A DNA stretch of 64,000 bases. It comes from Amphiscolops sp. MND2022 (taxonomy: Eukaryota). Shown piece by piece: positions 11,511 to 57,514 of this stretch (positions are counted from its first letter, which is position 1; each line of letters starts with the position of its first letter). The DNA is taken from positions 40,240,001-40,304,000 of the forward strand of contig OZ076409.1 of assembly GCA_964187785.1 (NCBI GenBank), given 5' to 3'. The notes under the pieces were generated by a model. It was not told the DNA's origin, did not search any database, and was given only the letters and a program-made list of their open reading frames with translations. A program made the translations under genes and the position numbers.

Positions 11511-12173
11511 TTACTTTGTTTTTTTATTGCAATTTTTTGTCAACTTTTGAAGACTTCGCGTATTGAAGAGTAAAAACGTTAAACATGAAAAGAGTTCATT
11601 GTCCATGTGATAATCCTCTTCATCGGATTCTTCATTCGAAAGTATTGTTGCATCTACGTCAGATTCATTTTGGAATAAAGGTTTTACGGGTTGTTTTAAG
11701 TCTTTCATTTTTGAAGCCCTGAGAGGATAATTGTTGCTTTCGAAAGCTGAATTTTCGTTGTTAGATGCGTGAATTTCGATAGACTGTACTTTTTCGGATC
11801 CCAAAAATTGCCTATTTTGCATTACGTTCAATTCAGATCTTGGGTTCGTTACTGTTGATGCAGTTTTGTTAGATTTAACCTCTTTCGAAATTGCTTCAAA
11901 TTTTTTAGCCATTTCTTCTCTTATCTTTTCAATCTTATCATCGTTCTTTTGCTCCATTATTTGAGTCCAAACTTGGATTTCGTTGCTGAACTGACTGGGC
12001 TCAGCCAACTGGTTTTCTGAGTTATTTTCACCTAAACTTTCATGAACATTGACGTTAAAATTAGTTAAAGTTGCATTTTCTGGGTCGAGTGTTTCTACTT
12101 GTGTTTCACTTAATCTTCTGTCAGGAGATGGTGTTCCCAATCTTCTGGACCTTTTGTTCCTCTTGTTTCTCAT
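11511..12173 (-). CDS. LTR-encoded Gag N-terminal segment of E4 (189 codons) running out into flanking DNA
   Basis: MRNKRNKRSRR basic start and a coiled-coil-like middle. Ends EEDYH|M exactly at the LTR terminus, in the same phase as E1/E2/E3. Confidence 0.7.
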   Translation of the reverse strand: MRNKRNKRSRRLGTPSPDRRLSETQVETLDPENATLTNFNVNVHESLGENNSENQLAEPSQFSNEIQVWTQIMEQKNDDKIEKIREEMAKKFEAISKEVKSNKTASTVTNPRSELNVMQNRQFLGSEKVQSIEIHASNNENSAFESNNYPLRASKMKDLKQPVKPLFQNESDVDATILSNEESDEEDYHMDNELFSCLTFLLFNTRSLQKLTKNCNKKTK

Positions 12174-13970
12174 CTCACTCAAGTGAAAAGATGTATTTTG
12201 TTCGTTGGGGAAGTATTTGAATTGCTCCAAAGTATCTAAGATCCAAAAAAAGTGAAAACAAAGCAATTATTGAAAGAAACTGCTTGCACAATGTAATCAG
12301 ATTTGTGGATTTAGCAACGGAATGCGATGAGGGTTGAAACTTGAATGTTCTCTATATTATAACTACTTTCATTACGATACATATGCTGCAACAAACTAGC
12401 AAGATCTTGCTAGTTCGATTAACAGCCAATAGAAACGCGGTATTATTTCGGATACGCGTTACGAGTTTTGCTCGTTACACTGTGTGGTTTGGCGTTACGC
12501 GTAGTGATCAAACTACAGCAAATGACTACTTTACACTATCTACAATTACGTACTTTGACTGGTTTCCACTTCACACACGAAGACGGATATTAATTGTTTC
12601 ACACTTTAACCTGGTACACAATTTGACTGGAATTCACTTTCAAAGTGAAAAACAATCAAAGTGTGTATTCTAGTGATTACTTTGACTGTTTTCCACTGTT
12701 AAGCATTCATCATTTTCTTTCTAACCTGGTACACATTTTGACTGGAATTCACTTTGGCAAAGTGTGTACGTTAGTGATTTTGATTAGGATATATGATTAT
12801 GCCAGCACTCTTTAAAAATTACATCATCTGTTGTTGAATTGCATCTGTCAGCACTTCAATGTCCTTCGAATTAGTTCTTTCCTGAATCACTGATGAATTA
12901 AACTTGTTACGGAACGTTAGTTGATTTCATTGTGACGACTAGGTATTACCATCCTAATCTTACTTGAAACTGGGACAACCGCCCAGTCACTTGACTAAAA
13001 TTCTTGAAATTCTTGACTGGTTTCCACTTTTCTCTAATTACGCTCAATGACCACCATCCGCAATTTCTGATTACACTGTGCATCAGAATTCACGATGAAC
13101 ACATTGCACTGTTTGACTAGAATACGGTTCGTTCTCGTTTTACAGAAAATACACTTTACACTTAATGATAAATTTCACTTTTGCGGCATATGTATCGTAA
13201 TGTTGCTTCTGAAAAACTGGGATCATAACACTCGTTTTGAGAGAAGTCATACAAACCTGGGATACAAAAATAGAATAACGTCACCATTACGCCAGGATAT
13301 TTATATTACACGCAAAGTTGACGATAGGTCCTAGAAAACTTGGAAAACTGCACAAAATACTGTATAGCGCGTAATTGCGAATATAATTCAATTGTATAAT
13401 GGCAGAGTCTCTTTTGAACGGTTATTAGGCTAAAAACACATACTGACGAGTATACGTCACTTGTAGAACCGCAGGGTGCTGCATAGTGTTAATCCGCATT
13501 TTGACGAGTAATCGTCAGTTATCAATCCGCAGGATGCCGCATAGTTCAAGTAAAATAAACGTATGATTGCGAGTAATCAAAAAGGCTCAAAACGCATAAT
13601 GTTGCATAATCATTAGCATAAATGATCATTTAACGATGTCGTATTCAGAAAATGGTTTTATTATGCAATCAATTAGTCATCTGATGAGCTTTTTGGGTAG
13701 AAGGTCTCAAGTTTTAACCTAATTCAGGCCTTCTGGGAAGTATAAAACAAATTCATTATGCAAGTGTTGTTTAAAATATTCAGATGACCTCTCCAGAGCG
13801 GCAAATCAATCAAATAATCACCAATTAAAAATGTTTGTACAAGTTTGCGAAAACGAGTTGGGTGATTAAGGTTTCTTAACGGCAGGTTAAAGTATCGGGG
13901 TGAGAGCTGTCTCTGTTCGTCTTCAATCACTGTTGCATACGGGGTCCAGCACAGCTGCTAAGCTAAGACA
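11606..13970 (-). mobile_element. E4: 3' LTR (~2.37 kb) of a truncated element of the same clade
   Basis: Minus strand starts TGTCTTAG at 13970, after purine-rich AAAGGAGCGGGAC, and ends ..ATCACA at 11606. Not followed by a full PBS. Contains the gag N-terminal ORF and TATAATATA (12353-12361). Confidence 0.8.
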
Positions 13971-14335
13971 GTCCCGCTCCTTTGAAGATGAACAGGGCTG
14001 CCTCGAACCCATCAATGAATGCTCTCGATCTAACTCCGTGATCTCTGACGGTTTCATCATCGTAGGCAGTTGAACCTAAATAAACCCCCCGTGTCTCGAG
14101 GGGCACCTGGACGTATGTTTTCCCACAGTGATCGCAGCAGCTACATTCGGCGTCACAGTGGGGAACAGCCGAAAGTCCCGTCTCGGTAAACTGGAAAAGT
14201 GGGCTCTTGGAACCTGCCAGGAACCCCTCTTGGGGGTAGTTGAATTATTGGAGGGATGTTCCCGGCAGTGGGATTGTTGGGTGCTCCTCCAAACGTCGGC
14301 ATGACGTGTACACTTGCAGTTTCCACGTTTTGCAC
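13926..14335 (-). pseudogene. E4 small CxxC ORF ('ORF-X') overlapping LTR start; frameshift near 14160, stop at the conserved SQ position
   Basis: CDHCGKTYVQV..RSRAFIDGFEAALFIFKGAGLS*LSSCAG aligns without gaps to E2 ORF-X (16/64 identities by eye). 5' boundary uncertain. Confidence 0.7.
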
Positions 14336-15223
14336 ATGCTCTTGTTGTGGGTAAAAAGCTGCGGCCTCCGGATTGTAGTTCGGAGGGTAACTAGCTAATA
14401 TTCGACTAGTGTCATTTACCTAGTTACCATTTCTGCTCGGGGTAGGAAGGATTGCTGTGGTCGTGCGTAGGTGGATATTTACCAGCGTATTTTCTGTAAT
14501 GGTCGTATCAGTAACTTCGGGTGAGTCGTTTGTCTCTTCAAATAGAATTTTGTGGAGATATAGTATTGTTTGATATGAAATTTCACCAAAATTACAAAAT
14601 ATACCAAATTGATCCAATTTTTGTCGTTATTCATACATTTTAAGTACAGTTTTCGAGAGTTTTTATGAGTAACAGTGTTTAGGACGTTCGAAAGCGAAAG
14701 AACAAGCTATGCTGTACGCCTTTTTGTATAGAACGTTGCAGTGTTCCGTTTCAAAAACAAGTCAGAAGTGCTCCAAAAATTACTCCAACGCCAGAATTAC
14801 TCCAACGTTGGTGACTTTATGTTTGGAAAAGATCCAGATGATACAAATAAGTTCACAGCACGCCCTTGTAGGAGAAATTTGCACGTAACATTTGGTTGTA
14901 AAAATCCTCATGGTTAATAAAATTTCCAAAAAACATAGTGTTACAATCTAACCAAAAAATTCAGAATGTATCGACGCTTTATGCTTCTTTTTATATAGTA
15001 TATAAGGTATACACAGGTATATAAGTGGTATTTAAGGCATGTTTGTGGTATACAATATCTTTAAAACTCACTTCCGTCTAATATCCGGTATCCAGTAGTC
15101 TTTTCTGAAGGTTTCAAAATATATTCTTCCTCAGCCTCAAAGGCTTTAAAGGTGCTTGGTAGCTTATGAAATCATGTAAATATTTCAACTAGAGTAATTA
15201 TTTCACGTAACCCCATACTTTGC

Positions 15224-17166
15224 TGTCGCAGGCTGCCGCCTGTGACGGTACTAAAATCACGACGACAGCAGAAGAGCAGGAAATAGCGACCGGTACCCTA
15301 CCAATCTATTAGAGAGGTAAACATTCAAAACTCAAACTTTTATGTTTATCTGTTAGGTTTATAAGTTGAATTTGTTAATGTTGCTAATTTCTCATTTGAT
15401 ATATACTTTTGCCAGTATTAGTCTGTTGAGGCCAACGATCAAAAGGCTCAGATGATCCGTTGATGTTTGTGAGATTCAGAAGTGCAATACAATAAGGTAA
15501 TTGAAGCAATTAGAAACACGGCTAGATAGCGTAAAGGAAACAAGTTCAAGTGAACGAAACTCCAATTCCGGGGACGTCACTTGAGCTCATCTCGCTAGCC
15601 AATCACATTCATTCATTCCTGCAGTGCTATTGCTGTATTTATTAGTTGGCCGGTTAAGGCCGCATGACGGAACTCCGCTTTCATTACTCGGTGCTTTAGT
15701 CAAACGGCCGGTTCCGGCCGCAAAGCAATAATGGAAGATGTATGTACTTTGTTAATGATAGTATAGTTGTGCTTTTATACTGGTTAAACGCTCATTTTAG
15801 TAATTTGGCGCTTTGTTCTAATATTTGGCCGAAGAAGGCCGTTTGCCTGATCATTATCTCTTGTTGCTAGAACCAACCAGACAGTGGCCGGTTAAGGCTT
15901 CTTTTCAAATAAATTATTCGGATGCTATATCTAACCAATTCGCGTACTCTAAATGTCATGTATGGTTGTGATTGCGATGTAAACACTCATGTAACTCCCT
16001 AAATTATTTAGTGCAATCAATATTAGACTATGTTGTTGCTACAAACGCCGGTCTGAAAGACCTATCTGGTTATGCCCACCAGTTAACATGTACAATCTGT
16101 GGCCATATCAGATAAAGTTTAACATGTGCAATAACATGTAATACTGTTGCTCACTAGCCAATTCTGTCTGCTAACGGGGCACGTGCCGACACGGGATTGT
16201 TAGCATTCCCCGAATATTAGCGGCTTGAGTAATTTAATTGATGATAATTGATGCACTGCGTGCCTTTCAAATGTTTACTACTGTTGTCGAAACAAGAATT
16301 TGAATGGCCGCGTGAATTTCCTGATCACATTTCAGCGGCACTTTGATGTTCATATAGCTGTGTAAATCAGGTGCTTCCGGAATGTAGTCATCACATTTTT
16401 TAAGTGTTTGTACTATGTATGTCACGCCCGAGGCAGTATATATAGGAGCTACTCCCTTGGGTGAACACAATTTTGTTCTGCTCCTTAAAATCAGTTTGTA
16501 AAATAACCTTCTGTTACAAACCTCCAAACAAGATACTATTTCCAGGTGTTAAATAATTTATTATTTGACCAGGTTTGTCTCAATGCCTACAACTAGAAAA
16601 CAAGAAAGCGAGAAAGTCCAGAGGACTTGAAATGTTGTCAGATATCAAGAATTTAGATATTATGTTAGGTGAGAATCACTTTAATGCAAGGGAGAGAGAA
16701 AGTAGTTTAAATAGCAATTTGCCCAGGAGATCTAGAAGCTTTGCGAGCAATGAATCCGAAAATGAAGATGGGGACATAGGTAGAAATCAGAGAAATGTTA
16801 ACTCTAGAACAAATGCCGAATGTGACCGAAATTCAGTTACAGGCAACTCTAGTGCTGAGATAAACAGGTTGTCAAGTGGAATAAATTCTCGTATTTCACG
16901 AAAAATGGACGAAATGATGAATTCTGTGAGTGTCCAGATACAAAGGGCCATAAGTGATGCGATAAGTACCCAGGTGCTTCCACAAATCCAAAATGTTATT
17001 ATGGCCAGATCAGGACACGGGACCAGAAAGGGATGAGACGTTCCGTCTGAGAGACCGGAACTAAATTCCGAAGTTCAGCGAAATCTAAACCCAAAGAACA
17101 ACTTGAGAAATGAACAGAATGAGAACCAGTTAAACAATGATTACCCTGATCTGAATGTTCATGACA
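15224..17166 (+). repeat. E2 5' LTR (1943 bp)
   Basis: Matches 29669-31536. TATATATA at 16437-16444; gag ATG at 16583. Confidence 0.95.
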
Positions 17167-18292
17167 TGGTGACAGGAGACAACGAATCTCCAAATCAGGT
17201 TCCTGAGTTTCTCACAGGACGTATCCCATCAAGAAGTCATCTCAGTCAGTCCTCTGAGGACATCAACCTTGACACGACGATCCCAGCGCATGAGAGAATC
17301 GGTACAGCTGCAGATCCTGATCCCATTACCAGATTGGTCGACGTCTTGACTACAATGCAGAATAGACCAACGGCTCAACAACTCACAATACGCCCAGTCA
17401 ACTCTAAACACTATGACTTTCGATGGCAAGAGTGAGAAATTTGAGCTGTTCGAAGATCTTTTCCACACTATGATCCAGATGCAGCCAGAAATGACCGAGC
17501 AGATGAAAATTAACCATTTTCATTCACTATTGAGGAAATATGCTCTCCAGACGTTCAGAAACATCAATTCGACAAATCGCCAAACCCTCGAAGACGTACT
17601 AGTCTTTTCCCGACGAAATACGTCAAACCTGAATCACAGGCAACCGCCAAACATAAATGGCACTGTCTGGTCTTTGATCCCAATACGATGAAACTGCCTG
17701 ATTTCCTTGAAGAATTAAATCAAGGCACAGGGAAGGCGTTCGGAGAACACGCACAGAAAATGATTGACAGACTCCTGTACGCAAAATTGCCACCAAAACT
17801 GAAAAGGTCAGTCAATATGGCCAGACTAGAAAACGGCTCATACGATGAAATAGTTGCTCATTTGGAGAGAGAATTTGAGCTTAACGCCCTCGAGGAGTCA
17901 GACGATCTACCTATGGCAGCAATGACTTCCTCATCTGCTAAGCCCAAAACTCCCCTGTCCACTGGGCAAATGTCGGACATCACTTGCAATTACTGCAAGG
18001 AAAAGGGCCACATGGTCAAGAACTGCGAAAAATTGAAAAAGAAAAAGAGAAAGATGCCCAACAAGGCAAATTGACTCAGAAGAAAACATACCCGGAGTGT
18101 GGCACTTGTGGCAAAAAGAACCACCCGGAGGAAAGATGTTGGCAAGGTGCCGGTGCGCATCTTAAACCCAAACGCACTAGGCCCGAGGACTCAAATGACA
18201 ATAAGCCTAATTCAAAGGCTCAGAAACCTCAGACCAAAACGACATCATCAAGCTCCCAATCCTCATCTTCCAATGATGAGTCAAAAAACTAA
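16583..18292 (+). pseudogene. gag: E2 gag, starting inside the 5' LTR; several frameshifts and stops
   Basis: MPTTRKQ start (a 2-bp deletion relative to the 3' LTR copy). MVTG at the PBS, TFDGKSEKFELFEDLF, CNYCKEKGHMVKNC and CGTCGKKNHPEERC; ends ESKN*. Confidence 0.9.
17167..17178 (+). promoter_or_regulatory. E2 primer binding site TGGTGACAGGAG
   Basis: Follows the 5' LTR only; the 3' LTR is followed by the TSD. Confidence 0.9.
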
Positions 18293-21200
18293 CTTCGCCA
18301 CGACTTCAATACAACGAACTAATATCCGTCCGACAATACATCAGATCGGACCCTCCAACGCAAACCTTTCATCAAAACAATCAGCATTTGATGGGCTATC
18401 CCTATGTTGTCTGGCAGCAACAGATGGAAAAAGCCACCATCATTACCTACAATAACACCCATTTGTTCCAGAACCAATTCCTGTTTGGGATCCTGATTAT
18501 ACAACTACCTTTACAACCCTGTTCAGGCCCATTCCCCTGATCGATGATTACAATCCAACATACATCCTCCCAGACTATGACAGAGTTCCTTATTGGGACA
18601 CCGAGATTTATAACCAGGATCTATTGCAAATCCAGTATTTTCTAGACGACATTGAACACTACAACAAAACAGTCCACGAGAACCCCCCCAATTACCCACA
18701 ACAAGAAAACACGGGCACTAATCAAAAATTAGCAAATGAACGATGGTACAAACCACCCAGTGTTCCCAAACCCCCTGGGGACCGAGAATCCTGAAAATAC
18801 TGCTGAATCCATACCACAATCACTATTAGACGAGAAACAATTCCAGAATGTGCTCATAACCAAAGATGGTGAACCAGGCTGTATACCCCTGTCAACTAAC
18901 ACTAATCTCAAATGCAAGAAACGCATGCTTTATTTCCCAATGGACTTTAGGGAATTGACCATTGATGGACTTAAGACACCGGGGCTCTCTCCAGTGCAAT
19001 TCCTGAAATGGACTTCCGGAAAATCCGCCTTCTATCTCCACAATCTGTCATCCGGGAAGGTCCGCCTCCGAACTTCCAAATCATGGTCACTAATGGGCAA
19101 CTGGAAACTCCCAAGAGTAGCATAGAGCTCAAATTCGAAGTTTGTGACATTGAGTTCAATGAAATCTTCATAGTGATGGAACATTTGACAGGACCGATCA
19201 TTGGACTAATGTTCCTTCAGAGAAATCATACAGTTCTAGACATGAGACAAGGAATCCTGAATTTCCCGTTCTTTTCAATGCAGCTCAAAACAGCTGATCA
19301 CAAATACTCAAACGTGCTAGAACCAATTCTCAACCCTACTGAGATAACCATTCCGCCAAATGATAGAGTCCTAATTAGGACCAATTCCTTACTCTACCCT
19401 GAGAATGCTGTCACGGGGATACTGCAACCGAGCGACCTTCTCCATGATGAAGGCGACATCACATTTTGCCCAGCTTTGGTCACTCTGAATGACGGCAATA
19501 TATTGATACCAGTCAATAACTTCACAGACCACCCTTACAAACTCAAAAAGAGACTTCATATTGCCAATTTCTTTGTCATGACGACAGAACAAATGAAGTA
19601 CGTCAAACCGGTCGATCCGGCATCAACCTGGTACCTCTTGCAAAATGACCAAGAGCAGGCAGCCCATTATGTCAGCAGCCTCATCAAAACGAATAGAAAT
19701 CCTCAAAATTCCAAAAAATACTGGTTCCCAACTCCAGAAAACCCTGGAAACCCCGAGGAACACACGCCCGTCCAGAAAAGAATTCTACGTGAACTACAGG
19801 CCTTACAGGACCTGGAGACACTCGACCCCACCAAAGATGAAGAATATCGTGCAAAGATCCTAGAAAACTTTGAATGAAAAGATTCCACTCTCACTCCTGA
19901 AGAAAAGGAAAAAATTGAGGAATTGCTAGTGGAATTCCATGATATATTTGCACGACACAGATTTGACATAGGCATGAACGAGGAATTCAAGGTGAAATTG
20001 ACACCTAAGGACGATTCCCCAGCCTCTAGCCAGAGCCTCCCAGCTCTACTACCCTGAAGGAGGACATTCTAGTCGAATTAGCCATGTTACACAAATATGG
20101 CATAATCACCACTCTTCCGTTCTCGAAATATGCGAGTCCAATATTCGCACAAATGAAACCCAATGGAAAACTCAGACTCTTGGTTGACTTGAGGAAAATC
20201 AACAACCTCATATCCGATGATTACATAAACAATAATCACCCCGTCAGTACTTTAGTCGACGCCGCCCAACACTTAGCGGGCAAAAAACTGTTCTGTAAAT
20301 TAGACTGCTCACAAGCATACCACTGCCTGTCGATGGCTGACCAACGATCGATTGAAATGTTGGCCTTTAACTTCGCCAGTCGCACATTTGCATACAGACG
20401 TTTGGCACAAGGCCTTAGCAGAGCTCTGTCCGCGTTTTCGAGCTTTATGAGAGAATACCTCGACGAAGTCATTAAAGCGGATCAATGCGTCCTGTATGTG
20501 GACGATATCGGCATCGCAGCCAACGATGCTGACCACCTCATAGCTAACCTGAGAGCAACGTTCAAATGCATTCAGGAAGCTGGCCTTAAGTTGACAATGC
20601 ACAAATATCACTTTGGTGCAAAAGAAATTGATTTTCTCGGACGAACTATTACTCCACAAGGCGTCAAACCCCAGAAACAGAACGTACAGAACTTCCTGGA
20701 AAAGACCAAATTCCTGAAGTCGAAAAAGGCTTTACAACGCTATTTGAGATTCCCAAACTACTACAAGAATTATGTCCCAAGACTTTCAAAACGCCTTGCT
20801 CCATTCTACAAGATGCTGAAAAGTGACGAAATTTTCCTTGTATCGAAGGATTTAGTCCAACAATTTGAAGAAATCAATAAAGCACTAGACAAATGCTGCG
20901 ATTTGGCACTACAACAACCTATCCCGAACGAGCAAATTGCACTAATGACTGATGCAAGTTTTGGTGCAGCTGGATACGCGGTCCTAATTGAAGACGACCC
21001 AAGCCAGAAATTTACGTCAACCAGAAAGTCCTATGCCCCTGTTGCATACGGATCAAAAACCTTCACCCCAGCACAGATCAAAATGTCAATTTATGCCAAA
21101 GAATTCCTTGCAATTTATTTTGCATTCAAAGAATTTGGACATTTCTTCTGGGTGCGCCGAAACCGGTCTTTATCCTAACTGACAACAAAGCTGTAACACG

Positions 21201-23485
21201 ATTTTGCCAAACGAAAATACAACCCCCAGCCCTGTGGAACGCGTGTGACTACGTGATTCAGTTCAATTTTGTCATAGGGCACATCCCAGGAGCACAAATA
21301 ACAGCTACCGACTATTTGTCCCGTTTGGAAGCAGACCCGAAGGACAAACTAGTCATGAAGATCCGTGAAGACGCACAAACGCTACCAATCGAAATAAACG
21401 TCTAATCAGCAGGGGTGTCACAGGAAGAACAAATCTTCTACACTAATGACGACGATGAGACAGAGGAACAATACTGGACAAGGAAAGAAGCAATCAGGAA
21501 AAATCCAACTATTGATGAGCCCACGGTTACAATACAAACTCTGTCAACAAATCTGGTCATCAACAAACAAGCATCACCCTGACATACAAGTCCGATTAAG
21601 GAAGACGAATCAAATCATTATCGAGCAATCCAAAGATGCTGTACTACATTAATTGAAAGCAAAACTCCTTCACGAAGAATACTCAGAGAACCTACTGCAC
21701 CAGGATGCCCGATACAGACATTATGCAAACAATCTGGAACGAATTGTACTTAAGGACGAAATCCTGACAAGGCAATACTTTGATGAAACAGGGAACGTTA
21801 AAGACCACCAAATTTTGCTTCCGCAGCACTTACTCCAGGAATTGCTTCAGTCTCTTCATGGGACAGCGCACAAACACCCTGGTATCTCAAAAATGTTGCA
21901 GGAAATTCGACAGAGGTATTACTACCCTAGCGTGGCTAAACACGTCAGAAAATGGGTAGAAGGGTTTGAAGAATGTGCAAGGGACAAACGAGTCCCCAAT
22001 GCAACAATTACGTTTGAACTACTCAACTTGCCCGAATGGGACTTTGGACCTGAAGACGCCATGCAAATCGATTTATTGCCGAATCTTCCCCCAAGTGGAG
22101 GCTACGAAAACGTCCTAACAGCAATTGATGTGTTCTTCAGATATTTGTTCGTCTATCCCCTTACGGACGCGTCGGCGATCAATGTAGCAAAAGCGCTCAT
22201 TGACATTATGACCAAACACGCATATTTACCGACAACACTTATTACTGACAAAGGTTCTGCATTTACTTCTACAATTACTACGGAAATTACGCAAATTTTT
22301 TGGGCATAACACTCAAAGGTGCAGCAACAAAACATCCGCAAGTAATTGGGAAATTAGAGCGGACCCATGCCTCACTAAAAACAAACCTCAAAATGGCTTG
22401 TGGAGAATATCGCCGACAATGGCACAACTACTTGCCATTAGCAGTACTAAATCACAACACTAGTTACCATGCCAGCATCGGTTGTGAGCCGGCGAGAGTA
22501 TTTCAGGAGGAATTCCATATAATATCTTGGATCACAAGCTTAGAAAAAATCCAAATGAGCAGGTCAGCCCAACAACCGAATTTGCTGAAGAAATACAAAA
22601 CCGGACAAAAATCTTGATTGACAAAACAAAGCAAAGTATTATGCAGTCATATATCAAGTACAAAGAATATTATGATCGCGAGGCAAAAGCCGCTCCACTG
22701 AAGGAGAATGATTATTGCTTTGTATTACAGCCGAAAGCGGATCATCAAGGATCAAAAATCCCATTCCATGATTATAGATGGGTCGGACCAACTATAGTCC
22801 AAAAAATTCTACCTAACAAAAATTACATTGTACGACGAATCAATACAAACAAGACTCAAATATTGCATCGGATTCGAACCAACCGCTTGAGGACAATTTC
22901 CGAGAACAGCGGTTACAGCCTGATGAAGAGATTGTCATTCCGCAAGATGACTTATATATCATAACGTGGGAAACAGACTTTGGCGAGCAGCTAATTACAC
23001 GAGGACACGATCCTATTCCGACTAGCCTACCGAATGGCGAACAGCCGAATGCGGCAGAACTGATTCATAGTGACTTAGACGAGAATGAAGCGGATTACAT
23101 AATCACGACAGACGAAACAAATTACGCTGACCACGCGGCGCACAGCCGAAATGAAAGATTAAATGATGACGTCACCAAAAGAAATGCAGCTAGTGAAGCG
23201 ACTAGAAATGAAGAATCTGATTGGCCGAATCCGGCCGTTTTCCCAAAAAGTCAAGAAAAATCTTTGCCGAATTCGGATGAAGGACAAAAAAACTATGAAA
23301 GTTTTTCACAAAGAAACCCGATGAAAGAAAATGATGCACAAAATTCTCCAAAAAGGGGGGATGATATTATCGTGCCCGAAATATCGGAAGACGATACCAG
23401 AAATGAACGTCTGAGCCCTAGAGGAGGGAAATATAATCTCAGACCTAACCCCAACCCAAACTACATAGAAGATTTTAGATACTAA
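18283..23485 (+). pseudogene. pol: E2 pol: PR, dUTPase-like spacer, RT, RNase H, integrase
   Basis: IIGLMFL protease end; LYVDDIGI; LMTDAS; H..HKHPG integrase zinc region; MQIDL, ITDKGSAF and LERTH as the DDE triad; WVGP (GPY/F). Gypsy domain order. Many stops and frameshifts. Confidence 0.95.
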
Positions 23486-23719
23486 AGAATTGAATTCTTC
23501 CCGAAAATGGGAGTTCTTTTCTTTTATCTCTTTCATCTTTTCAGCCCCTCAAGAATTTTTTGCAAAAAATAATAGGGCTTTCCAAAGGATCCCTTGTGAA
23601 AAAGAATAAATATGGGATCAAGGAATCAAAAGAAACGTAATGAGAATACAAATCCGGCAACAAAACAGAAAATAAACGAAGTTTACAGTTTGTAAGTACA
23701 TAAAGACATATGTACAAAA

Positions 23720-26700
23720 TCAGGACTTAGTGGAGGAATCTTTACTGGGACTTCCAGCAACAGAAGAAGTGGACGACCTCGAACCGCTCCTACCCCTCTT
23801 TCGCTTTTTGCTGCTAGGGAACCTCACAGCAGATTGGTCACCCACAGTACTACTTCCTTCCAGATCACCTTGCGCTGAGGCCCTTTTCGGAGCTGAATCG
23901 GCTTTACGATGGGTGGCTAAGAAGGACTTATATATTTTTGACCGACCAAAAATGTCTGTGTAAGTCCAAGGGTCGTACTCTGGGGAGAAGGCAGCGCGTC
24001 CAAAAGACGCAGCGAGGGCAGAAAATTTGGCAAGGCTGGAATCTTCACTGCTTCGAATGACGGAACCAGCAACATTGGCCATGTAACTCTGACAAGGTAA
24101 AACCAGGTCAGTGAATCGGTTTTGCCCTCCAGCAGCGGTGACATCTCCAAAGACGACAACGGTTGTACACAAACAGCTCAAATTAAAGAGGTGCAAAAGG
24201 TGAGAACGCTCGTGGAGAAACTCGAGCCCCATCAGGAACTCGATCAGATCGGCTGCCACGCTAGTGATGTCAAAGCTGGAACCGTAGGCAGTCCGGAGGT
24301 GGTCTAGTAGCTGAATGTATTGGTCTCGACACAGAGACCTGTTCGAATCATCGACCCAGGATCGAAGCGCAAAGGTATTGTAAAGCACGTCAAAGTGCCG
24401 CAAAGCCACATCTATCGGCCTCTTTAGCATAATGAAGGGATCAAAGGCTGCTAGTCCCTTCACGAGATTGGTGCTGAGCCCAGTCCTCTGGAGAATTCCA
24501 TTAATCAGGAACTGAATGTATTGCTGGCTGTCCTTGACGAAGTCAGCTTTCACTGTCTCAGCAGTAGCTAGGATGGCGGCCCGTTCAGTCTTCTGGCTGA
24601 AATGGAAACCCCCGGCCCTTGCCTTGCACGCAGTTGACACCTTGTTGGTCATCTTGAGCCGGATCAGGTACTCATCCCCAGGTAGGAAAGTGCCCTCGCT
24701 TGTCTGGAAACGGAGGAGGAGAAACCAGGCATTAGCTACAGGGGCAGTGTCTGGGGTTTAGATGCGAGAGCAGAGCAGGCTGAGGAAATGGCTGACCTCC
24801 CTGCATAGGTAGAAGGACGAATCACGACAAAACTGCAGGCTCACTGAGAAACTGGTCACGACTGAAAACAAAACTAATGTCCAGTTCAGGACAACTTACC
24901 CTCACCGGTTTTATAACAAACTATACTTACAATCACTGACAATTTTACTGAAGAACTCCAGCTTGACGATGCAGAATTCGTCCCATATCAGTGACCATTC
25001 AAAGCTTTGCACCTGGAACAAACCAACATCAATCCAATAATTGAAAATGGACCTTAGATCAGCCAAGTGAAGAAGGACGACTTGAATTCCTATGGGTTAA
25101 AGTGGAAAATGAGGAAAATCTAATCCTCCCTCTAGATCCTGAACCTTCTTGCAGAGGTGCATGGGTAGTGAGGTACCAAACCACAGACTTCCATTCGACG
25201 ATGAGTTCCCGACAGAGGATGGGTAGAGTTGTCACATCGAGTTTACAACTGGTTATAGCCTGGAAATAGCAAACGGATCCAATTATACACGTTGGACAAA
25301 TGAAACATTCCCTACCTAGGCCCTATCCCTCCAGTGGAAATTCTGTGAAGAAACTACTTACTTTAGTGAGTTCTGGACTACGAATTACCCAGTCTTCCAT
25401 GAGGGATCCGCCCAAAGAGACCATCAGAGCTTGAAGGACGGAGAAGAAAGCGATCTTTCTGAAGACACTGTTGCTGGTCTTGCGCATGAGTCGTGACAGG
25501 GAGAAGTGCTCGAAACGTAAGCAACTCTGAACCCCCTGGTTGTAATACTCTGACTCGTCAATGGCTCTGGGTAGGTCTGGGTGACATCCGGAACAGGCAA
25601 CTATTCCGGGTTTGGTGGACACGGCAGAGAGGATCCGGGAAAGGGACCCCAGTTCCCCGGTCACGTCAGTAGTGGTTCGAGAGCTTCGGCAAATGAACAC
25701 TCTACAAAGCTCGGAGCCTTTCCAGAACTTGACAGACATATGCTTGTAGACTCCAACTGTCTCAAACTCAAGGGAAAAGCACTGTTGGGAGTTGACTTGC
25801 TCTGCTATGTCGTCAAGGCAGCAGATGAAGAAGTGCTGGAAGATTGCCTAGGGACAAAACCCTTTTTAAAACCTTAGCTGGAACCGGCAATAAAGAACTA
25901 AAACAAACTGTACTAACCGACAATCTCTCTTCCCCCCAATTAAAGTCATTGAAGGTGGCTTGGTGATTGGTGAACGACCCCACCCGGGACCACAGATTGC
26001 GCAAGACCATCATATCATTCCTTGAGTCTTAATGAAGTCTCCGACCAGACAGAGTTGGGTCCTGATGCGGGCTTCTGGAGTGACTAGGGCAGTTGTGAAC
26101 CCTTTGACGAAATCCTCGTAGAAAGGGAATCGTTTTCCTATGTCCACAAGTTCAACGTTCTTGAATTTGGGCAATTCCTTAGCCAGTTCAACTTGGTCAG
26201 AAGCTTCCCATTGCCGCCACGGACCCGGTGCTGCGTCTTCCCAGTAATTGGGCCGGTACTTCGCAAGTGTTCGTAGCGCCAGCGCTGGTCTCGTCGAAAA
26301 TGACGCTCTGTCCGGTGGTGTCAGAGTATCTCGTAGGGGCCTTTGGACTTGATGGAAAATTTTTTCTTACAGATATGACACCAAACCATATGAGGGTTAT
26401 GGAGCGGGTCAGCTGGTCCAGAAATGAAAGATCTCGTCCATCCGATTTTAGAGAAGAATTCCTTTCGCATGGGGACACCTCGTTTAGAAAGATTCTTGTT
26501 GCCTTTCTTCTTCCTGGACTTGGACGAGCTGGCAGTGGTTGCACACAGGGCTTGATCTCTGACCTCAAGCAGTGTGGCATCTTGACTACTGTACTCTGGC
26601 GCGTCAGTCTCTGTGTCTTCTTTGACGTCCTGGCTCGACGATTGAGGCACTGGGGCATCTTGGACATTAGTAGTCATCTTGGAAGATTGGGTTATTAAAT

Positions 26701-27911
26701 CCATTTCGGTGGCACTATCAGTCTCCCCATAATACGAGGAATCACCGGTTTCTCCAGAACTGGATACCTCCGTGTTTTCGCCCCTTAGCGTAGCTTCTCC
26801 TTCAGTGTCACTTCAACTGGAATCTTCTGCACTACCGGGACCTGGGGTTTGTGCGCGCCTGCCTGAGTAGAAGTGCCCAGTTCTGGATGGAGCAACAGTC
26901 GGTTTACCTCGGACTGCATCAATGACCATGCGTTCCATAGTCGAAAAGGACCTTCCGAGGGTCTCATCAGTGAGGACTCCAAGAAGGTGGAACACCTGCG
27001 GCTCAGTGAAGGTGACGGTGGTTTGTCCTACTGGAAATCGAGTAGAGGGAGGTTCGTCGAAATACTCCTTGAGGATCGCTCGACTTCTTCCGGAAAGGTG
27101 CGGAGGCTCTTTCTGGATTGTGCCTTGTCCGGGCGTCTGCCCACTGGTGCCGGGAACCAGAAGCTTAGGTTCGGTCTCGTCTCCCCATTCAGTTTCAGAG
27201 GCGTGAGAAAAGGGATGACAACCATCTAGGGCTACTGGAACGATCACGCTGGACTGATCAGTTGCACCTTCGTCTCCACTGGGGTCAGTCAGATATCGGA
27301 CCTTGAATTCTCCGCCAGGGAGAGGGGGAGCGTCGCCAACAGAGGATGCTACTTCAGTGTCCTGTTGTGCGGGTGAAATGCCACCCGTGTTGTTGCCTGG
27401 AAGGTCAACAGTCCACAAGTTCAGCCAATTGAGAATCCGACGTCTCTACCACTCGGAGGGCAGACTCTAGAGCAGACTGATCAATATTTGGGGTTTCTCC
27501 TTCATTGACTGAGAGTGGCGTGCTTGCTCTTCTGGTCCCTGCAGTAGGCGAGGCAGGAGGATCTCCTTGAGTACTTGGGACAATATCCTGAGCTGGCTCT
27601 ATTTGCCCTGCTCCTCCCTGTGGTTGGTCGGGCACTTGTGCTCCTTCTAGCTTGCGTACCATGTTTTCCGCGTATGCAGTTACATCTGGGTCACTATCAG
27701 CACTGTGTGTAGAGGTGACGTCATCTGCTCGACTGCGTGGCGTTTCTTGGGATGGAGTCGGGTATTGGACTTGCCTACCCTGCTCAGTTGGGGGATTGAC
27801 TGTTGGAACATTGATAGGAGGGTCGGCTGGTGTGCTGGCAACTTCGGTTGACTGATTCTCTAAACGAAAAGAGATAAAGTTTGACGGTATGCTTCCTCGA
27901 AAAGAATCCAT
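23720..27911 (-). pseudogene. E2 antisense multi-exon accessory gene: disordered N-terminus, C2H2/BED-like finger, hAT-transposase-like body
   Basis: VWCHICKKKFSIKSKGPYEIL(R)HHRTERH finger. GT-AG introns at 25848-25917, 25260-25361 and 24862-24930; removing them gives near-gapless alignment to the E3 antisense protein. True start uncertain. Confidence 0.8.
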
Positions 27912-28968
27912 ATTACCGCGTTAGAAATCTTCCGGAAGTGTTTCAGATTTGAACAAAATGTGTTGTCACGAACCTATTAGTGGAAACAGGAAGCGCTGTA
28001 TGAAAGAAGTCTAGCCTTGATCAAGCTAAACTAGTTCAATATGTGAAAACTGAACCAACTTGTAATTGAAGACATGTTTCTCCAGTACTGTTAACCCAAC
28101 TCGAAGAGTCTCGTACTAGCTGGCCGGAATCGTGGAGTTGTGCCAATCTCGTTAGAAGAAGAGGGGAACCAGGGATTCTCCGAAACGAGGAGTTGTTAAG
28201 CGCAAGAGAGATGGTGACGTAAATAGACTGGTGCCAATTGAAAGGATATGGATGGGAAGACAAAAAGAAAATAACCAGAATCGAATCGGAATTAAAAGTA
28301 GATAAGAGAATTGGAATGTTGGAGTTCGTGGCTGAAGAGATTACCAGACTAATACTATATAATTACTTACATATTTAAAATTGTGCATGGAGTCTGCCAG
28401 CGAAATGTACAGAAGATCTTCGTTGTTTACAGTTTACTTAGTTAGTGGCCGATTATGGCCGTTTGCCTTACTTTGATTTGCCATTTTGTTCCGTTGCCCT
28501 AGTTACCCTTAGTTAAAAAATTTGTCATTTTGAATCATTTTAGTTAATTTTTTCGCCATTCTATTTATTCATTTTTCATTCTATCAATGGGAGTGTCTGA
28601 TTGGCTGAAGCCATTTTGAGAAAGTTTTGCGACGCATGCCGTTAATTACCTTCGAGCTGACGTTAATTACCCACTTGAAACGGGTGAAGTTAATTTTTAC
28701 AACTCAAGCGTCGTTCACACCTCTCATAGTGATGGTATTGATGAGCGGTAAACACTGAATTATCAAAGGATGCCGACTAATTATGAAATTCCGTTCAGGA
28801 ATGTTTATGCCGGATTAGGACGATTTACCGAAGACTCAACCGCCAAAACGAATTGCCGGGGAAAAGCCCGACTTGGCCAAATTCTCGAGTTGGTGAATTC
28901 ATTCCACCTTGAAATCTTGATCAAGCCAGTCGACTTTCCTACTTAACGAAATTGCTAAAAAACTGATA

Positions 28969-29757
28969 ATGCAAAGATACAACTTGACTAAAAAGCTCTT
29001 CGACTTTGAAGAAGAAGAATCAGAAAGCTCAACTAACTCAGTGATCTACATATCTAGCAATAGTGAAAATGAAGCTTCAAGCTCCTGGGATTCAGACTGG
29101 TCCACAGATACGGAGGCCATAATAGACAGGATCGAGCGAGAGGTTAAGGCAGTCACAACCCCTATTGCGGGGCGCGGGATGACGACGGAAGACTCAAACG
29201 ACGAAATGGTAGCGGGGCCCAGCAATGCTCAGCCTGTTCCGCCCTCTACCCCCATGCTGGGATTCGAATACTTCAACAGAGAGATGTGCCTAGCGCCGTC
29301 TAAGAAACAGAAGAAATCGAGAGTCGAGCTTTGTACTACAGTGCTACCTGTCTTGGAATCTCCACTGTCTCCTCCTGATCACGAGAGAAGACCCAGTATT
29401 GACACCCCTCTTGTACAGCCGGCCTCAGGGACCTTCTACGCTTCATACCATGTGCAGAATATCAAGCCATACCAAAATATCAGTGAGAGTCTACACACAG
29501 GCTGTATGGTATGTGGTAAATCAAGGGATCAGATAAAAGAAGAAAAGATCAACTGGTATATGGAGAGATCGACGCCCAAAAGTGAACTCGCCTACATCAC
29601 CGCATTACGACGAGAAGCCTACTCTATTGGTTTGAACGCAGGTAGTTTACTTTTCCTAACATCCGCAGTGTCGCAGGCTGCCGCCTGTGACGGTACTAAA
29701 ATCACGACGACATCAGAAGGGCAGGAACTAGCGACCGGTACCCTACCAATCTATTAG
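28969..29757 (+). CDS. E2 ORF-X, 262 aa, acidic N-terminus plus CxxC domain, ends 89 nt inside the 3' LTR
   Basis: Uninterrupted ORF with SSWDSDW and GCMVCGK. Homologous segment in E4. The C-terminal SQAAACDG is also encoded at the start of E5. Confidence 0.8.
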   Translation: MQRYNLTKKLFDFEEEESESSTNSVIYISSNSENEASSSWDSDWSTDTEAIIDRIEREVKAVTTPIAGRGMTTEDSNDEMVAGPSNAQPVPPSTPMLGFEYFNREMCLAPSKKQKKSRVELCTTVLPVLESPLSPPDHERRPSIDTPLVQPASGTFYASYHVQNIKPYQNISESLHTGCMVCGKSRDQIKEEKINWYMERSTPKSELAYITALRREAYSIGLNAGSLLFLTSAVSQAAACDGTKITTTSEGQELATGTLPIY

Positions 29758-31536
29758 AGAGGTAAACATTCAAACCTCAAACTTTTATCTTATTCTGTTA
29801 GGTTTATGAGTTGAATTTGTTAATGTTGCTAAATTTTCATTTAATATATACTTTTGCCAGTATTAGTCTGATAAGGCCAACAATCAAAAGGCTCAGATGA
29901 TCTGAATAAGGCCATTTGCCTGATCATTATCCCTTGTTGCTAGAGCCAACCGGACAGTGGCCGGTTAAGGCTTCTTTTCAAATCAAAAGCTCAGAACGAG
30001 TTCAAGTGAACGAAACTCCAATTCCGGGACGTCACTTGAGCTCATCTCGCTAGCCAATCACATTCATTCATTCCTGCAGTACTATTGCTGTTTTTATTAA
30101 TTGGCCGGTTAAGGCTGCATGACGGAACTCCGCTTTCATTACTCGGTGCTTTGGTCAAACGGCCGGTTCCGGCCGCAAAGCAATAATGGAAGATGCATAG
30201 CTTAATATCATTGTACTTTGTTAATGATAGTATAGTTGTGCTTTTCTGGTTAAACGCTCATTTTAGTAATTTGGCGCTTTGTTCTAATATTTGGCCGATT
30301 AAGGCCATTTCGTACTCTAAATGTCATGTATGGTTGTGATTGCGATGTAAACACTCATGTAACTCCCTAAATTAATTAGTGCAATCAATATTAGACTATG
30401 TTGTTGCTACAAACACCGGTCTGAAAGACCTATCCGGTTATGCCCACCAGTTAACATGTACAATCTGTGGCCATATCAGATAAAGATTAACATGTGCAAT
30501 AACATGTAATACTGTTGCTTACTAGCCAATTCTGTCTGCTAACGGGGCACGTGCCGACACGGGATTGTTAGCATTCCCCGAATATTAGCGGCTTGAGTAA
30601 TTTATTTGATGATAATTGATGCACTGCGTGCCTTTCAAATGTTTACTAGTGTCGTCGAAACAAGAATTTGAATGGCCGCGTGATTTTCCTGATCACATTT
30701 CAGCGGCACTTTGATGCTCATATAGCTGTGTAAATCAGGTGCTTCCGGAATGTAGTCATTACACTTTTTAAGTATTTGTACTATGTATGTCACGCCCGAG
30801 GCAGTATATATAAGAGCTACTCCCTTGGGTAGACACAATTTTGTTCTGCTCCTTAAAATCAGTATGTAAATTAACCTTCTGTTACAAACCTCCAAACAAG
30901 ATACTATTTCCTGGTGTTAAATAATTAATTATCTGACCAGGTTTGTTTCAATGCCTACAACTAGAAAACAGAAGAAAGCGAGAAAGTCAAAAGGACTTGA
31001 AATGTTGTCAGATATCAAGAATTTAGATATTATGTTAGGTGAGAATCACTTTAATGCAAGGGAGAGAGAAAGTAGTTTAAATAGCAATTTGCCCAGGAGA
31101 TCTAGAAGCTTTGCGAGCAATGAATCCGAAAATGAAGATGGAGACATAGGTAGAAATCAGAGAAATGTTAACTCTAGAACAAATTCCGAATGTGACCGAA
31201 ATTCAGTTACAGGCAACTCTAGTGCTGAGATAAACAGGTTGTCAAGTGAATTAAATTCTCGTATTTCACGAGAAATGGACGAGATGATGAATTCTGTGAC
31301 TGTCCAGATACAAAGGGCCATAAGTGATGCGATAAGTACTCAGGTGCTTCCTTAAATCCAAAATGATATTATGGCCGGATCAGGACACGGGACCAGAAAG
31401 GGATGGGACGTTCCGTCTGAGAGGCCGGAACTAAATTCCGAAGTTCAGTGAAATCTAAACGCAAAGAACAACTTGAGAAATGAACAGGATGAGAACCAGT
31501 TAAACAATGATTACCCTGATCTGAATGTTCGTGACA
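29669..31536 (+). repeat. E2 3' LTR (1868 bp) with second copy of gag N-terminus (30951-31536)
   Basis: Direct repeat of 15224-17166 with substitutions and one internal block rearrangement. Confidence 0.95.
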
Positions 31537-31785
31537 TTTGCCGTAGCTTCTCACGCAGTTGCGGTGAATGTGGCGTTTTACAAAACACACATGGAGCTAA
31601 AATAATACGGAATTCGGAAGAAAGAAATGTAGTTGTAAAAAAGAAAGAAAGGAAGTAAGAAAAGTTGATTTGATTGGAATCATAACATAAATACCGAAAC
31701 ACATTTAAAATTAAACAGAAGAAACCAATCTGGACAGGAAAAGATCCTATTGCCTCATCAAGATCCTGCCTTGAACAACCAATTT

Positions 31786-34326: not shown

Positions 34327-35892
34327 TGTCGCAGGCGGCCGCGTGCGACGGAAACTGGTGCTCGATTTCATATAATCACTATAACACTCTCACTGGCACG
34401 ATCCCCCTAGACTGAAGAAAAAGGACTTGAAGTCTAAAAGAACAAAGATGGAACTGATGAACCTATCTTGTACCTAGCTGTAATATTTTGTAATTGTTGC
34501 TAAATTCGAAATTAATAATCGGACTTGTAGTTCAATTAGCGTTCCTTTAGTTTATGTCGATGAAATTGAATTAATATGTTGTTACTTTAATATACTCATA
34601 TACGTTAACGGTGATGCATTATTAGTAAATAGACACCAAGGCGTACAGATAAAGGAAACGTGTACAAAGGTTTCTTTGCATGTCGCTTTGGACAGCTAGT
34701 CCCGTTGAATTTAGACCAATCATATACAAGTATTCAATAACTTGCTGCGCTGTGAGTGCTTCTATTTGAAGGCCGTACTTGGCAGTCCACCTAATTAAAA
34801 TGGCCAACAACGGGTTTGAGACATCCATTTCAAATTGAAAGTGCTATATTGCTGAAATGAACGCTTAAACAAGGCCCGTATGGCTCGTTGGAAGTTGCAG
34901 TTTATAGTAGTAAATACATGAATTTGTTGCCTGAAGTACATGAAAAGGGAGAAATTGTCCTTCCCCCTTCTTTCATAAATATTCATGCAGGATACATGTA
35001 TTCAAAATGCATTCCCCTACAATGTTTGATGTCATGTCGGCGAGGACCTCAAGGCCATACAAACATTTTGCTTTGTCATATAATCTATATTTAAATATAA
35101 CGTCATGATGCTGTTTATAGAAACGTATTCAGATTACTGTTACTTTTTTTAGACCTTTTTTCTAAAAATAGCTAATGACTTACTGGTTAATGCAAGTCAT
35201 GGAAATTTAACTATAAATACCCAGGACACCTAGTCCCGAGGAGAAGAGAATATACCGGTGCACTGGATTACGGTTAATAACACAAATTACAATTTGGAAG
35301 CTGAAGATAATTATTTCTCTTCTCTTGTGAACAACCTCTTAGAGAACCTTCCACTAGAAGACAAAAAGCAAAAACTAGAAAGTCAAGGGAGATGGACATG
35401 ATGTCCGACTTTGAAAATATGGACGTTATGATAGGGAATGGAGAGTCTAACACTATTGAAAGGGAATTAGCAAGCGCAATTGAGGAATCATTAATACTTG
35501 TGGACGTAGAGTCTAATATGTTTCCAAGAAATGAATTCAGAGAGACTAGTGATGAAAATAATGTTCCTGGGCAAAATGAGCCCAGAGACTAAATGGAAAT
35601 TTTCTCAAATGAGTTTAACCTAAGGCTATCTCAAGAAATGGATTCCATGATGACCATGATGCATTCGCAATTTAACAGAGCCATAAGCTCATCCGTTTCC
35701 GATAGAGTTATCTCCGAAATAAAAAATATCATGGGTTCGATGTTTTCGTCAGGAATTAGGGACACTGAGGCCAGTTCGTCTCCAAATAGCCAGGAGAATA
35801 GGGAAAACAATCCTGGATTGAAAACTAAAATTACGAGAAAGGACTCTCTTCCGTCGTTGATCTGAGAGACACGGAGGTCTTGGGTCCTTAAA
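34327..35892 (+). mobile_element. E5: solo LTR (1566 bp) related to E2
   Basis: Starts TGTCGCAGGCGGCCGCGTGCGACGG (SQAAACDG). TSD ATGAC at 34322-34326 and 35893-35897. TATAAATA at 35212. Decayed gag N-terminus PSTRRQKAKTRKSREMDMMSDFENMDVMIG (35344-35865). Terminal ACA appears mutated to AAA. Confidence 0.88.
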
Positions 35893-57294: not shown

Positions 57295-57514
57295 AATCAA
57301 TTGTCTGAAAATAACAAACCATGATAAAATAAAAAGAAGATGTGGCGTAAAGCAAGGAAATTTCTACTATCAAAAGTTATCTACTATATAAGGAGAGTTG
57401 TTCAGTCTGCCAGCTGAACAATTCATGGAGTTGACACAAATCGTGTGAACAAATTTTCCAAGCGAAGCAAATCAGTTGTAGTAAAAATTGACTGACGCTT
57501 AGTTTACTACTACA

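What the first reader, a model, noticed from the sequence alone, without database searches (positions are those of the whole stretch)
15224..31536. A clade of giant four-gene Gypsy elements with a shared, non-standard genome plan
Seen: E2 (bounded by TSD TTTGC) has the order LTR[gag N-term]-PBS-gag-(-1 frameshift)-pol, then a convergent antisense spliced gene, then a divergent sense ORF-X that ends in the 3' LTR. E3 has the same plan although its LTR nucleotide sequence looks unrelated. E1, E4 and E5 show the parts they retain. Established: standard Ty3/Gypsy elements carry gag-pol, sometimes a sense env, and antisense extra ORFs are best known from plant Tat/Retand elements. Inference: five diverged families keeping this layout points to an old lineage under selection, possibly undescribed.
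Basis: partly seen in the sequence, partly recalled or inferred. Interest (0 to 1): 0.92.

Follow-up and report, generated by a model that had tools for sequence, protein, structure and literature searches.

The report
Retrotransposon carrying a disarmed DNA transposase
A very abundant group of copy-and-paste jumping genes in this animal genome carries, on its opposite strand, a conserved gene whose protein folds like the cutting enzyme of a cut-and-paste jumping gene but seems to have lost the cutting residues, so one kind of mobile element appears to have tamed the enzyme of another, perhaps to control its own expression.

Summary
The layout is real. E2 (15224-31536, TSD TTTGC) is a decayed Gypsy copy: gag starts inside the LTR, then PBS, a -1 slippery site, pol, a convergent antisense gene with introns, and a sense ORF-X ending in the 3' LTR.

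Homologs occur in three families whose RTs are 73-75% identical. The gene follows RT almost always (8 of 8; 102 of 134 plus 6 of 7 re-checked; 32 of 120 plus 9 of 10 re-checked), is never seen free-standing (30 of 30 beside gag/pol), and is under purifying selection (dN/dS mostly 0.03-0.2).

LTRs carry family-specific repeated dyad motifs, so an LTR-binding regulator is the likeliest role (inferred, about 0.5).

Corrections: only the E1, E2 and E3 types show the gene; ORF-X is not alignable between families; 16 kb is not giant. RT placement and expression are untested.

The parts
15219..15223 (+). E2 left target-site duplication TTTGC
15224..17166 (+). E2 5' LTR (TG...CA); its last ~585 nt code for the gag N-terminus
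15648..15899 (.). Four GGCC-N6-GGC(C/T) dyads in the E2 5' LTR (15648, 15706, 15827, 15886): candidate binding sites
   Evidence: 0 of 100 shuffles reach the count
16583..18292 (+). gag (DUF1759-like capsid part, two CCHC-type knuckles); broken by stops and frameshifts in this copy
   Evidence: intact in sister L052
17167..17178 (+). PBS complementary to the 3' end of a host tRNA (read as Leu-CAA), inside the gag reading frame
18283..18289 (+). A AAA AAC slippery heptamer before the gag stop; pol lies in the -1 frame (frameshift inferred)
18290..23485 (+). pol: PR, dUTPase-like stretch, RT, RH, IN; broken in this copy, 1735-1738-aa open frames in many relatives
23720..24861 (-). Antisense gene, last exon: hAT insertion and C-terminal part plus basic tail
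24930..25270 (-). Antisense gene, two small internal exons between short GT-AG introns (inner limits approximate)
25362..25847 (-). Antisense gene, exon for the RNase H-like core (no conserved catalytic Asp)
25918..27911 (-). Antisense gene, large 5' exon: acidic low-complexity N-terminus, then BED-like C2H2 finger (about 26267-26443) and DNA-binding/dimer helices; 5' end uncertain; frameshifted in this copy
28447..28460 (.). Same dyad motif in the divergent region between the antisense gene and ORF-X
28969..29757 (+). ORF-X, ~262 aa, acidic Ser/Thr-rich and mostly disordered, CxxC plus helices near the C-terminus; ends 89 nt inside the 3' LTR
29669..31536 (+). E2 3' LTR; no purine tract directly upstream
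31537..31541 (+). E2 right target-site duplication TTTGC
44186..63190 (+). E3: same plan (LTR 44186-46092, PBS 46093, gag-pol to 53077, ORF-X, LTR 61200-63107 followed by a second PBS); tandem remnant with a 3.16-kb duplication
53451..55964 (-). E3 antisense hAT-derived gene core, intronless; two stops in this copy, 820-838-aa open frames in relatives
1..6059 (-). E1: LTR (about 3570-6059), PBS at 3569, gag, 5' part of pol; runs off the window; a close relative (L032) shows the antisense gene and an ORF-X-like frame
11590..14400 (-). E4: truncated relic (ORF-X-like piece, LTR, gag N-terminus); limits approximate
34327..35892 (+). E5: solo LTR with gag N-terminus, TSD ATGAC

Best explanation
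An ancestral Gypsy element acquired a hAT-type DNA transposon (or a hAT-derived host gene) in antisense between pol and the 3' LTR and kept its transposase as an accessory gene.

Shown: homology across three families, the Hermes-like fold, near-universal linkage to RT, and purifying selection.

Inferred, step 1: the antisense orientation lets its introns survive reverse transcription, because they are not spliced from the sense genomic RNA.

Inferred, step 2: the DDE site decayed while the BED-like finger, the DNA-binding/dimer helices, the scaffold and a basic tail were kept, leaving a nuclear, sequence-specific DNA-binding protein.

Inferred, step 3: it binds the repeated family-specific dyads in its own LTR (and, in the E1 and E2 types, in the divergent region), as hAT transposases bind subterminal repeats. 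There it acts as the element's own transcription regulator or anti-silencing factor, and protein and sites diverge together.

Odds: hAT-type origin about 0.85, catalytically dead about 0.85, LTR-binding regulator as the selected role about 0.5.

For: Conserved residues: the finger C-x2-C..H..H and W385 are kept (W in 24 of 24 and 19 of 19), while strand 1 and strand 4 have no invariant acid.

Linkage: 102 of 134 RT matches, with 0 on the same strand; 32 of 120; 15 of 17 sampled 'misses' carry the gene after all; 8 of 8 sampled E2-type RTs; 30 of 30 antisense loci lie beside gag or pol. A pol-less copy keeps an 837-aa open frame.

Selection: dN/dS 0.03-0.21 in the 24 of 36 E3-type pairs with estimable dS, and about 0.05 between E2 subfamilies.

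Dyads: 6 of 7 LTRs are significant against 0 of 10 control regions, and each motif is absent from the other families' LTRs.

Precedent: hAT N-termini bind their own subterminal motifs and were repeatedly domesticated as DNA-binding proteins (PMC8097297, passages).
Against: No sequence-level link to hATs: Pfam finds nothing, profile-profile comparison with five host hATs gives probability 0.08%, HMMs miss 11 host hAT loci, and the PDB profile search misses Hermes. Identity to Hermes is only 12%, and the finger region of the model is low-confidence.

The catalytic register comes from secondary structure and motif spacing, not from a residue-level superposition. Position 683 is D/E in 24 of 24 E3-type rows, though in only 35 of 162 wider rows.

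Only an E3-type protein was folded; the E2 type is linked to it by HMM (E 5e-7 to 6e-11, three collinear exons).

The dyads were chosen after the fact. The E2 sister LTR (L052) is not significant. A contiguous 12-mer test did not separate LTRs from controls. No E3 dyad was found in its divergent region. The sites could serve host factors.
Confidence: 0.5

Rival explanations
1. Same hAT-derived, catalytically dead protein, but selected as an integration cofactor: it binds LTR ends or chromatin and tethers or imports the pre-integration complex, in the manner of a targeting factor.
For: The whole transposase scaffold, not just the finger, is conserved with low dN/dS. It has a basic C-terminal tail. 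It is kept in a pol-less copy.
Against: The dyads lie inside the LTR and in the divergent region, not at the termini. The accessory half is more diverged than pol between sister families (dS 1.8 or saturated against 0.6-0.8), which fits exchange independent of integrase.
Confidence: 0.2
2. A counter-defence or competition factor: the dead transposase acts as a decoy or dominant-negative against host silencing proteins or host hAT-family factors, without binding its own LTR.
For: Fast divergence between families (at most 27% identity against RT 73-75%; at least 31 clusters at 60% among 141 pieces). The host has many canonical hATs.
Against: dN/dS shows purifying, not positive, selection in the pairwise tests. 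There is no sequence similarity to the host hATs sampled. It does not explain the family-specific dyads.
Confidence: 0.15
3. The donor was a related DDE superfamily (Mutator-, Kolobok- or P-like) rather than hAT, and Hermes is only the nearest solved structure.
For: Only 12% identity and no Pfam hAT hit. ISCth4 (IS256/Mutator kin, recalled) is second in the wide search.
Confidence: 0.1
4. The protein is still a nuclease or strand-transfer enzyme with a shifted active site, giving the element a second way of cutting or moving DNA.
For: The full catalytic fold and the Trp are conserved, and there is an invariant D/E at 683 in the E3 type.
Against: No invariant acid on strand 1 or strand 4 (Asp at 259 in 0 of 23, at 317 in 4 of 23). 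No TIR relics. TSDs are 5 bp and pol keeps an integrase.
Confidence: 0.04
5. A passive nested DNA-transposon insertion, or an antisense RNA whose protein is irrelevant.
For: Nested insertions are common (PMC7264820). No expression data were obtained.
Against: dN/dS far below 1 at dS above 1 in every exon tested. Hundreds of open frames. Same position and strand across families.
Confidence: 0.01

Closest known systems
Ty3/Gypsy (Metaviridae) LTR retrotransposons
   Same: TG..CA LTRs, 5-bp TSD, tRNA PBS, gag with CCHC knuckles, PR-RT-RH-IN order; best solved relative of pol is Ty3-G Gag-Pol (E 2e-47).
   Different: 130-197 gag codons inside the LTR with the PBS in frame, no purine tract next to the 3' LTR in the E1 and E2 types, and two extra genes, one a transposase derivative. 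No named clade could be assigned.
Plant Retand/Tat elements with antisense TRP28 (PF04195) ORFs; Grande gene23
   Same: Long pol-3'LTR region with a clade-wide antisense ORF thought to bind DNA and regulate (PMC11963269 passages; PMC7264820 parts 1-2 of 3).
   Different: Animal host, no PF04195 hit. Those papers report no similarity of the plant ORFs to other known TEs and call their origin unknown; here the gene has a full hAT-transposase fold, introns and a BED-like finger.
Hermes and other hAT transposases (PDB 4D1Q, 8EDG)
   Same: BED-like finger, DNA-binding/dimer helices, RNase H core with a large helical insertion and C-terminal part, collinear over Hermes 135-609; Trp probably matching W319.
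   Different: No conserved D180, D248 or E572 equivalents (numbering from PMC6027215), no TIRs, 12% identity, and it always sits inside an LTR element.
Host-domesticated hATs (ZBED, CGGBP, FAM200/GTF2IRD2-like)
   Same: hAT-derived proteins reused for DNA binding (PMC8097297 passages; Atlas neighbours).
   Different: Here the domesticating host is another transposon, with hundreds to thousands of mobile copies.
Other captured accessory ORFs: bdelloid ORF3 (GDSL, DEDDy), planarian Burro, Gypsy-borne PMD
   Same: Extra, family-wide genes in Gypsy elements (PMC5408684, PMC6431247, PMC5418596; passages).
   Different: None of the passages seen mentions a hAT transposase. 'Transposase', 'hAT' and 'intron' have 0 occurrences in PMC5408684; 'hAT' and 'antisense' have 0 in PMC6431247.

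Membership tests
Ty3/Gypsy | LTRs TG..CA with 4-6-bp TSD | tested here: met
   E2 TTTGC, sister copy ACCAG, E5 ATGAC
Ty3/Gypsy | pol order PR-RT-RH-IN | tested here: met
Ty3/Gypsy | PBS complementary to a host tRNA 3' end | tested here: met
   12-13 nt match to a host tRNA gene
Ty3/Gypsy | Polypurine tract next to the 3' LTR | tested here: inconclusive
   No purine run abuts the LTR in E2, L051 or L032; only a loosely purine-rich stretch in E3 and L033
Ty3/Gypsy | RT closer to Ty3 than to other solved RT groups | tested here: met
   Ty3-G 164 bits, next foamy virus 106 bits; BEL/Pao not represented in this comparison
Named Gypsy clade (Mag, CsRn1 and others) | RT/RH/IN tree position | not testable with these tools
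   No reference set could be loaded; the 120 best pol relatives are all unnamed ENA records
hAT transposase | [quoted passage not shown] | tested here: met
   C89, C92, H109, H115 conserved across families; no Pfam zf-BED hit, so BED-like by pattern only
hAT transposase | RNase H core with large helical insertion and C-terminal region (Hermes fold) | tested here: met
hAT transposase | Catalytic D180/D248/E572 | tested here: not met
   No invariant acid in the strand-1, strand-4 or post-insertion windows across families; register inferred; D/E683 invariant only in the E3 type
hAT transposase | R318-W319 | tested here: inconclusive
   W385 invariant, preceding residue A/P/S; equivalence inferred
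hAT transposase | Detectable sequence homology (PF05699 or hAT profiles) | tested here: not met
hAT transposon | Free-standing element with TIRs and 8-bp TSD | tested here: not met
   30 of 30 loci beside gag/pol; no perfect inverted repeat of 10 bp or more between the flanks in 3 of 3 copies
Retand/Tat | Antisense TRP28 (PF04195) ORF | tested here: not met
   No hit
env-bearing Gypsy (errantivirus-like) | Sense third ORF with fusion-glycoprotein features | tested here: not met
   The large gene is antisense with a transposase fold; ORF-X is short, acidic, mostly disordered and has no Pfam hit

The most novel reading that the evidence does not exclude
A transposon domesticated by a transposon: a whole, still-active Gypsy lineage uses a disarmed hAT transposase as its own sequence-specific regulator. 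Each family carries a protein that reads a private dyad code in its LTR, and the accessory-gene-plus-LTR module is exchanged between pol lineages. This would be a traceable DNA-transposon origin for an antisense accessory gene of LTR elements and a natural set of orthogonal regulator-promoter pairs.
Probability: 0.4. Interest if true: 0.9.

Novelty: new variant of a known kind. Interest (0 to 1): 0.78.

Why it matters
A review of antisense accessory ORFs in LTR retrotransposons states that their origin and function are unknown, and that the idea of an inserted transposon lacks sequence support (PMC7264820). Here such a gene has a recognisable DNA-transposase fold, is fixed across a large active clade and is under strong purifying selection. 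That makes both questions testable: the donor by structure-based phylogeny, and the function by binding assays on several natural family pairs of protein and LTR motif. It also shows that sequence-only TE annotation (Pfam, BLAST, HMM) misses class II modules inside class I elements.

Tried and rejected
Pfam scans of window ORFs and of 8 and 57 further proteins gave no family for the antisense gene or ORF-X. The PDB profile search with A1 found nothing meaningful. hhalign of A1 against five host hATs was not significant. Three weak tblastn hits to a host hAT locus lay in a stop-ridden frame and were rejected; HMMs found nothing. DUF4371-type hATs: no match in the genome, and the control did not ring either, so this is uninformative.

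Metagenome scans with A1 and with RT, and a viral-contig scan with pol, found no relatives. Sequencing runs: none was listed, no RNA holder listed. The homodimer prediction gave no answer. The ORF-X model was too poor to search (pLDDT 33). ORF-X homology between the E1, E2 and E3 types was not detected. The contiguous 12-mer repeat test did not distinguish LTRs from controls. ARAGORN missed the intron-bearing tRNA that Rfam found. No TIR relics.

Whether singleton homologs on short ENA contigs (such as P0261) come from a second host stays open. Earlier findings of the scan: none.

Literature searches listed no paper whose title or abstract start describes a hAT-derived gene in an LTR element. 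Repbase, Dfam, GyDB, most subscription journals and all supplements were not seen and could hold a description. The acoel searches followed a recalled resemblance only; the passages seen in PMC9911081 give LTR content but no element structure, and the host lineage was not determined.


Full report
Setting. The window is G000:C1:40240001-40304000 of a 1.07-Gb genome that has Wnt genes, so the host is an animal. Its lineage was not determined.

Observation. E2 has LTRs at 15224-17166 and 29669-31536 with TTTGC on both sides. gag starts at 16583, about 195 codons inside the LTR; E1 has about 131 such codons and the young sister copy L052 about 197. The PBS follows the LTR with no gap and is read in the gag frame. 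It is complementary over 12-13 nt to a host tRNA that Rfam recognises and whose anticodon I read as CAA, Leu. E1, E2, E3, L022 and L052 all end gag on A AAA AAC plus stop, and in E1, E2 and E3 pol lies in the -1 frame. The frameshift itself is inferred; the downstream fold is weak in E2 (-7 kcal/mol) and was not tested against shuffles. Pfam gives RT, RH and IN in Gypsy order, and Ty3-G is the best solved relative. The window's copy is dead, with many stops and frameshifts. The clade is young and large: about 28,000-30,000 first-look RT candidates for each of three overlapping searches, many 1640-1950-aa pol frames, and a sister copy whose LTRs differ at 2 of 1849 nt. E3 has the same plan but is a tandem remnant with a 3.16-kb duplication. 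E5 is a solo LTR and E4 a truncated relic; neither shows the antisense gene.

Catalysis. Hermes needs D180, D248, R318, W319 and E572 (PMC6027215, passage); the host hATs show the matching motifs. In A1 and in 272 further domain alignments, strand 1 and strand 4 carry no invariant acid. At position 259 there is no Asp in 23 and 22 rows; at 317 Asp is in 4 of 23 and 0 of 19. After the insertion, 683 is D/E in 24 of 24 E3-type rows but in 35 of 162 wider rows. The finger ligands and W385 are conserved. The register is inferred from the model's secondary structure and motif spacing. No TIR relics were found in 3 of 3 copies.

It belongs to the element. From the RT side: E3 type, 102 of 134 RT matches have a listed antisense match 3.6-6.8 kb downstream on the opposite strand and 0 on the same strand. 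E1 type, 32 of 120 (window row left out). Both lists are truncated, and 6 of 7 and 9 of 10 evenly sampled misses carry the gene when the DNA is read. E2 type, 8 of 8 evenly sampled rows of 108. From the gene side, 30 of 30 loci lie tail-to-tail with pol or, in one pol-less copy, gag. These samples are the best-scoring copies, so they speak for young, near-complete elements, and Gypsy lineages outside the clade were not sampled.

Selection and age. Pairwise Nei-Gojobori dN/dS is 0.03-0.21 in the 24 of 36 E3-type pairs with estimable dS (12 saturated), 0.05-0.33 for E2's last exon (about 0.05 between subfamilies), 0.07-0.21 for its other exons, 0.13 and 0.25 for ORF-X, and 0.04-0.06 for RT. dS above about 1.5 is imprecise. 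The three types are at most 27% identical in the C-terminal part, with at least 31 clusters at 60% among 141 pieces, while RT-RH is 73-75% identical. Between sisters, dS is 0.6-0.8 in pol but 1.8 or saturated in the last exon or core of the accessory gene, and identity drops at the end of pol. This suggests exchange of modules or constraint on pol codons.

Introns. E2-type copies share short GT-AG introns. The E1 and E2 types break at the same point near profile position 213, where the E3 type reads through. Antisense introns are not removed from the sense genomic RNA (established logic of retrotransposition), which explains their survival; splicing itself is inferred.

ORF-X. It is conserved within the E2 clan (127 scored matches of 6,499 candidates, 62-100% identity), acidic and mostly disordered with a CxxC and helices at the end. 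It is not alignable across types, so it is a positional analogue. Its function is open; an activation or partner subunit is a guess.

Mechanism. Six of seven LTRs contain a repeated spaced dyad reached by 0-2 of 100 dinucleotide shuffles, against none of ten pol, antisense or intergenic controls (27-100 of 100). Each motif is absent from the other families' LTRs. Copies also lie between the antisense gene and ORF-X in E2, L031 and L032, but not in E3. The E2 sister LTR is not significant, the motifs were picked after the fact, and a 12-mer test was uninformative. hAT N-termini bind their own subterminal motifs and have been domesticated many times as DNA-binding proteins (PMC8097297, passages). 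I therefore favour a self-encoded LTR-binding regulator (0.5) over an integration tether (0.2), a decoy (0.15), a non-hAT donor (0.1), a live nuclease (0.04) or a passive insert (0.01).

Comparison. The closest parallel is plant Retand, with antisense TRP28 ORFs in 97% of clusters, possibly DNA-binding, with no similarity to other known TEs (PMC11963269, passages). PMC7264820 (parts 1-2 of 3) calls the origin of such ORFs unknown. Bdelloid ORF3s, Burro and PMD are other captures (passages). The searches listed no description of this arrangement; repeat databases and supplements were not seen.

Verdict. A real, clade-wide feature and a new variant of Gypsy element. Its accessory gene has the fold of a hAT transposase but fails membership as an active hAT. 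Interest 0.78.

Noticed in passing
G000:C8:35587798-35635277, G000:C11:5996586-6003685; L050: The 3' end of the tRNA that matches the PBS occurs 1,246 times in the genome (control 0), partly in tandem arrays with 200-300-bp spacing; the gene carries an intron and reads as Leu-CAA. Primer-tRNA amplification beside a huge LTR clade may be linked.
   Followed up: partly
window 29629-29668; L051, L032: No polypurine tract abuts the 3' LTR in E1- and E2-type elements; the stretch is pyrimidine-rich ORF-X coding sequence, so plus-strand priming is unexplained.
   Followed up: partly
L022:2-3564: A pol-less derivative in which gag abuts an intact 837-aa antisense frame.
   Followed up: partly
G000:C10:2575401-2603614, G000:C12:14843707-14878737: Head-to-tail tandem copies at 13.6-kb and 14.5-kb spacing, apparently sharing LTRs; E3's trailing PBS at window 63108 fits the same pattern.
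   Followed up: no
window 49380-59271 against L033; 19800-30100 against L031: Identity falls from about 86-89% in pol to 55-80% right after the pol stop, and dS rises two- to five-fold: possible recombination between pol and accessory modules.
   Followed up: partly
window 53451-55964 against 23720-27911: The E3 type lacks the core introns present in the E1 and E2 types: intron loss (for example through the spliced antisense cDNA) or gain.
   Followed up: partly
P0146 residues 336-417; window about 19330-19580: A dUTPase-like stretch between PR and RT (PF00692, E 5e-6 in one relative).
   Followed up: no
L040-L044: The host also has canonical hATs with 597-697-aa open frames and intact catalytic motifs.
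   Followed up: partly
window 7311-7404, 31781-31878, 33885-34126, 41841-43076: A perfect 47-bp-arm palindrome, two other hairpin-like inverted repeats, and a 1.2-kb unit flanked by inverted arrays of an 11-bp repeat; MITE-like pieces also recur at 37180-41216.
   Followed up: no
P0261, P0266, P0268, P0334, P0369, P0403, P0415: Divergent singleton homologs on short (1-8 kb) ENA contigs, unlike the long-contig majority; they may come from a second host.
   Followed up: partly
window 46403-46675, 48202-48520: Internal duplications in E3 gag (136 bp) and in the pol N-terminal spacer (about 204-bp period).
   Followed up: no
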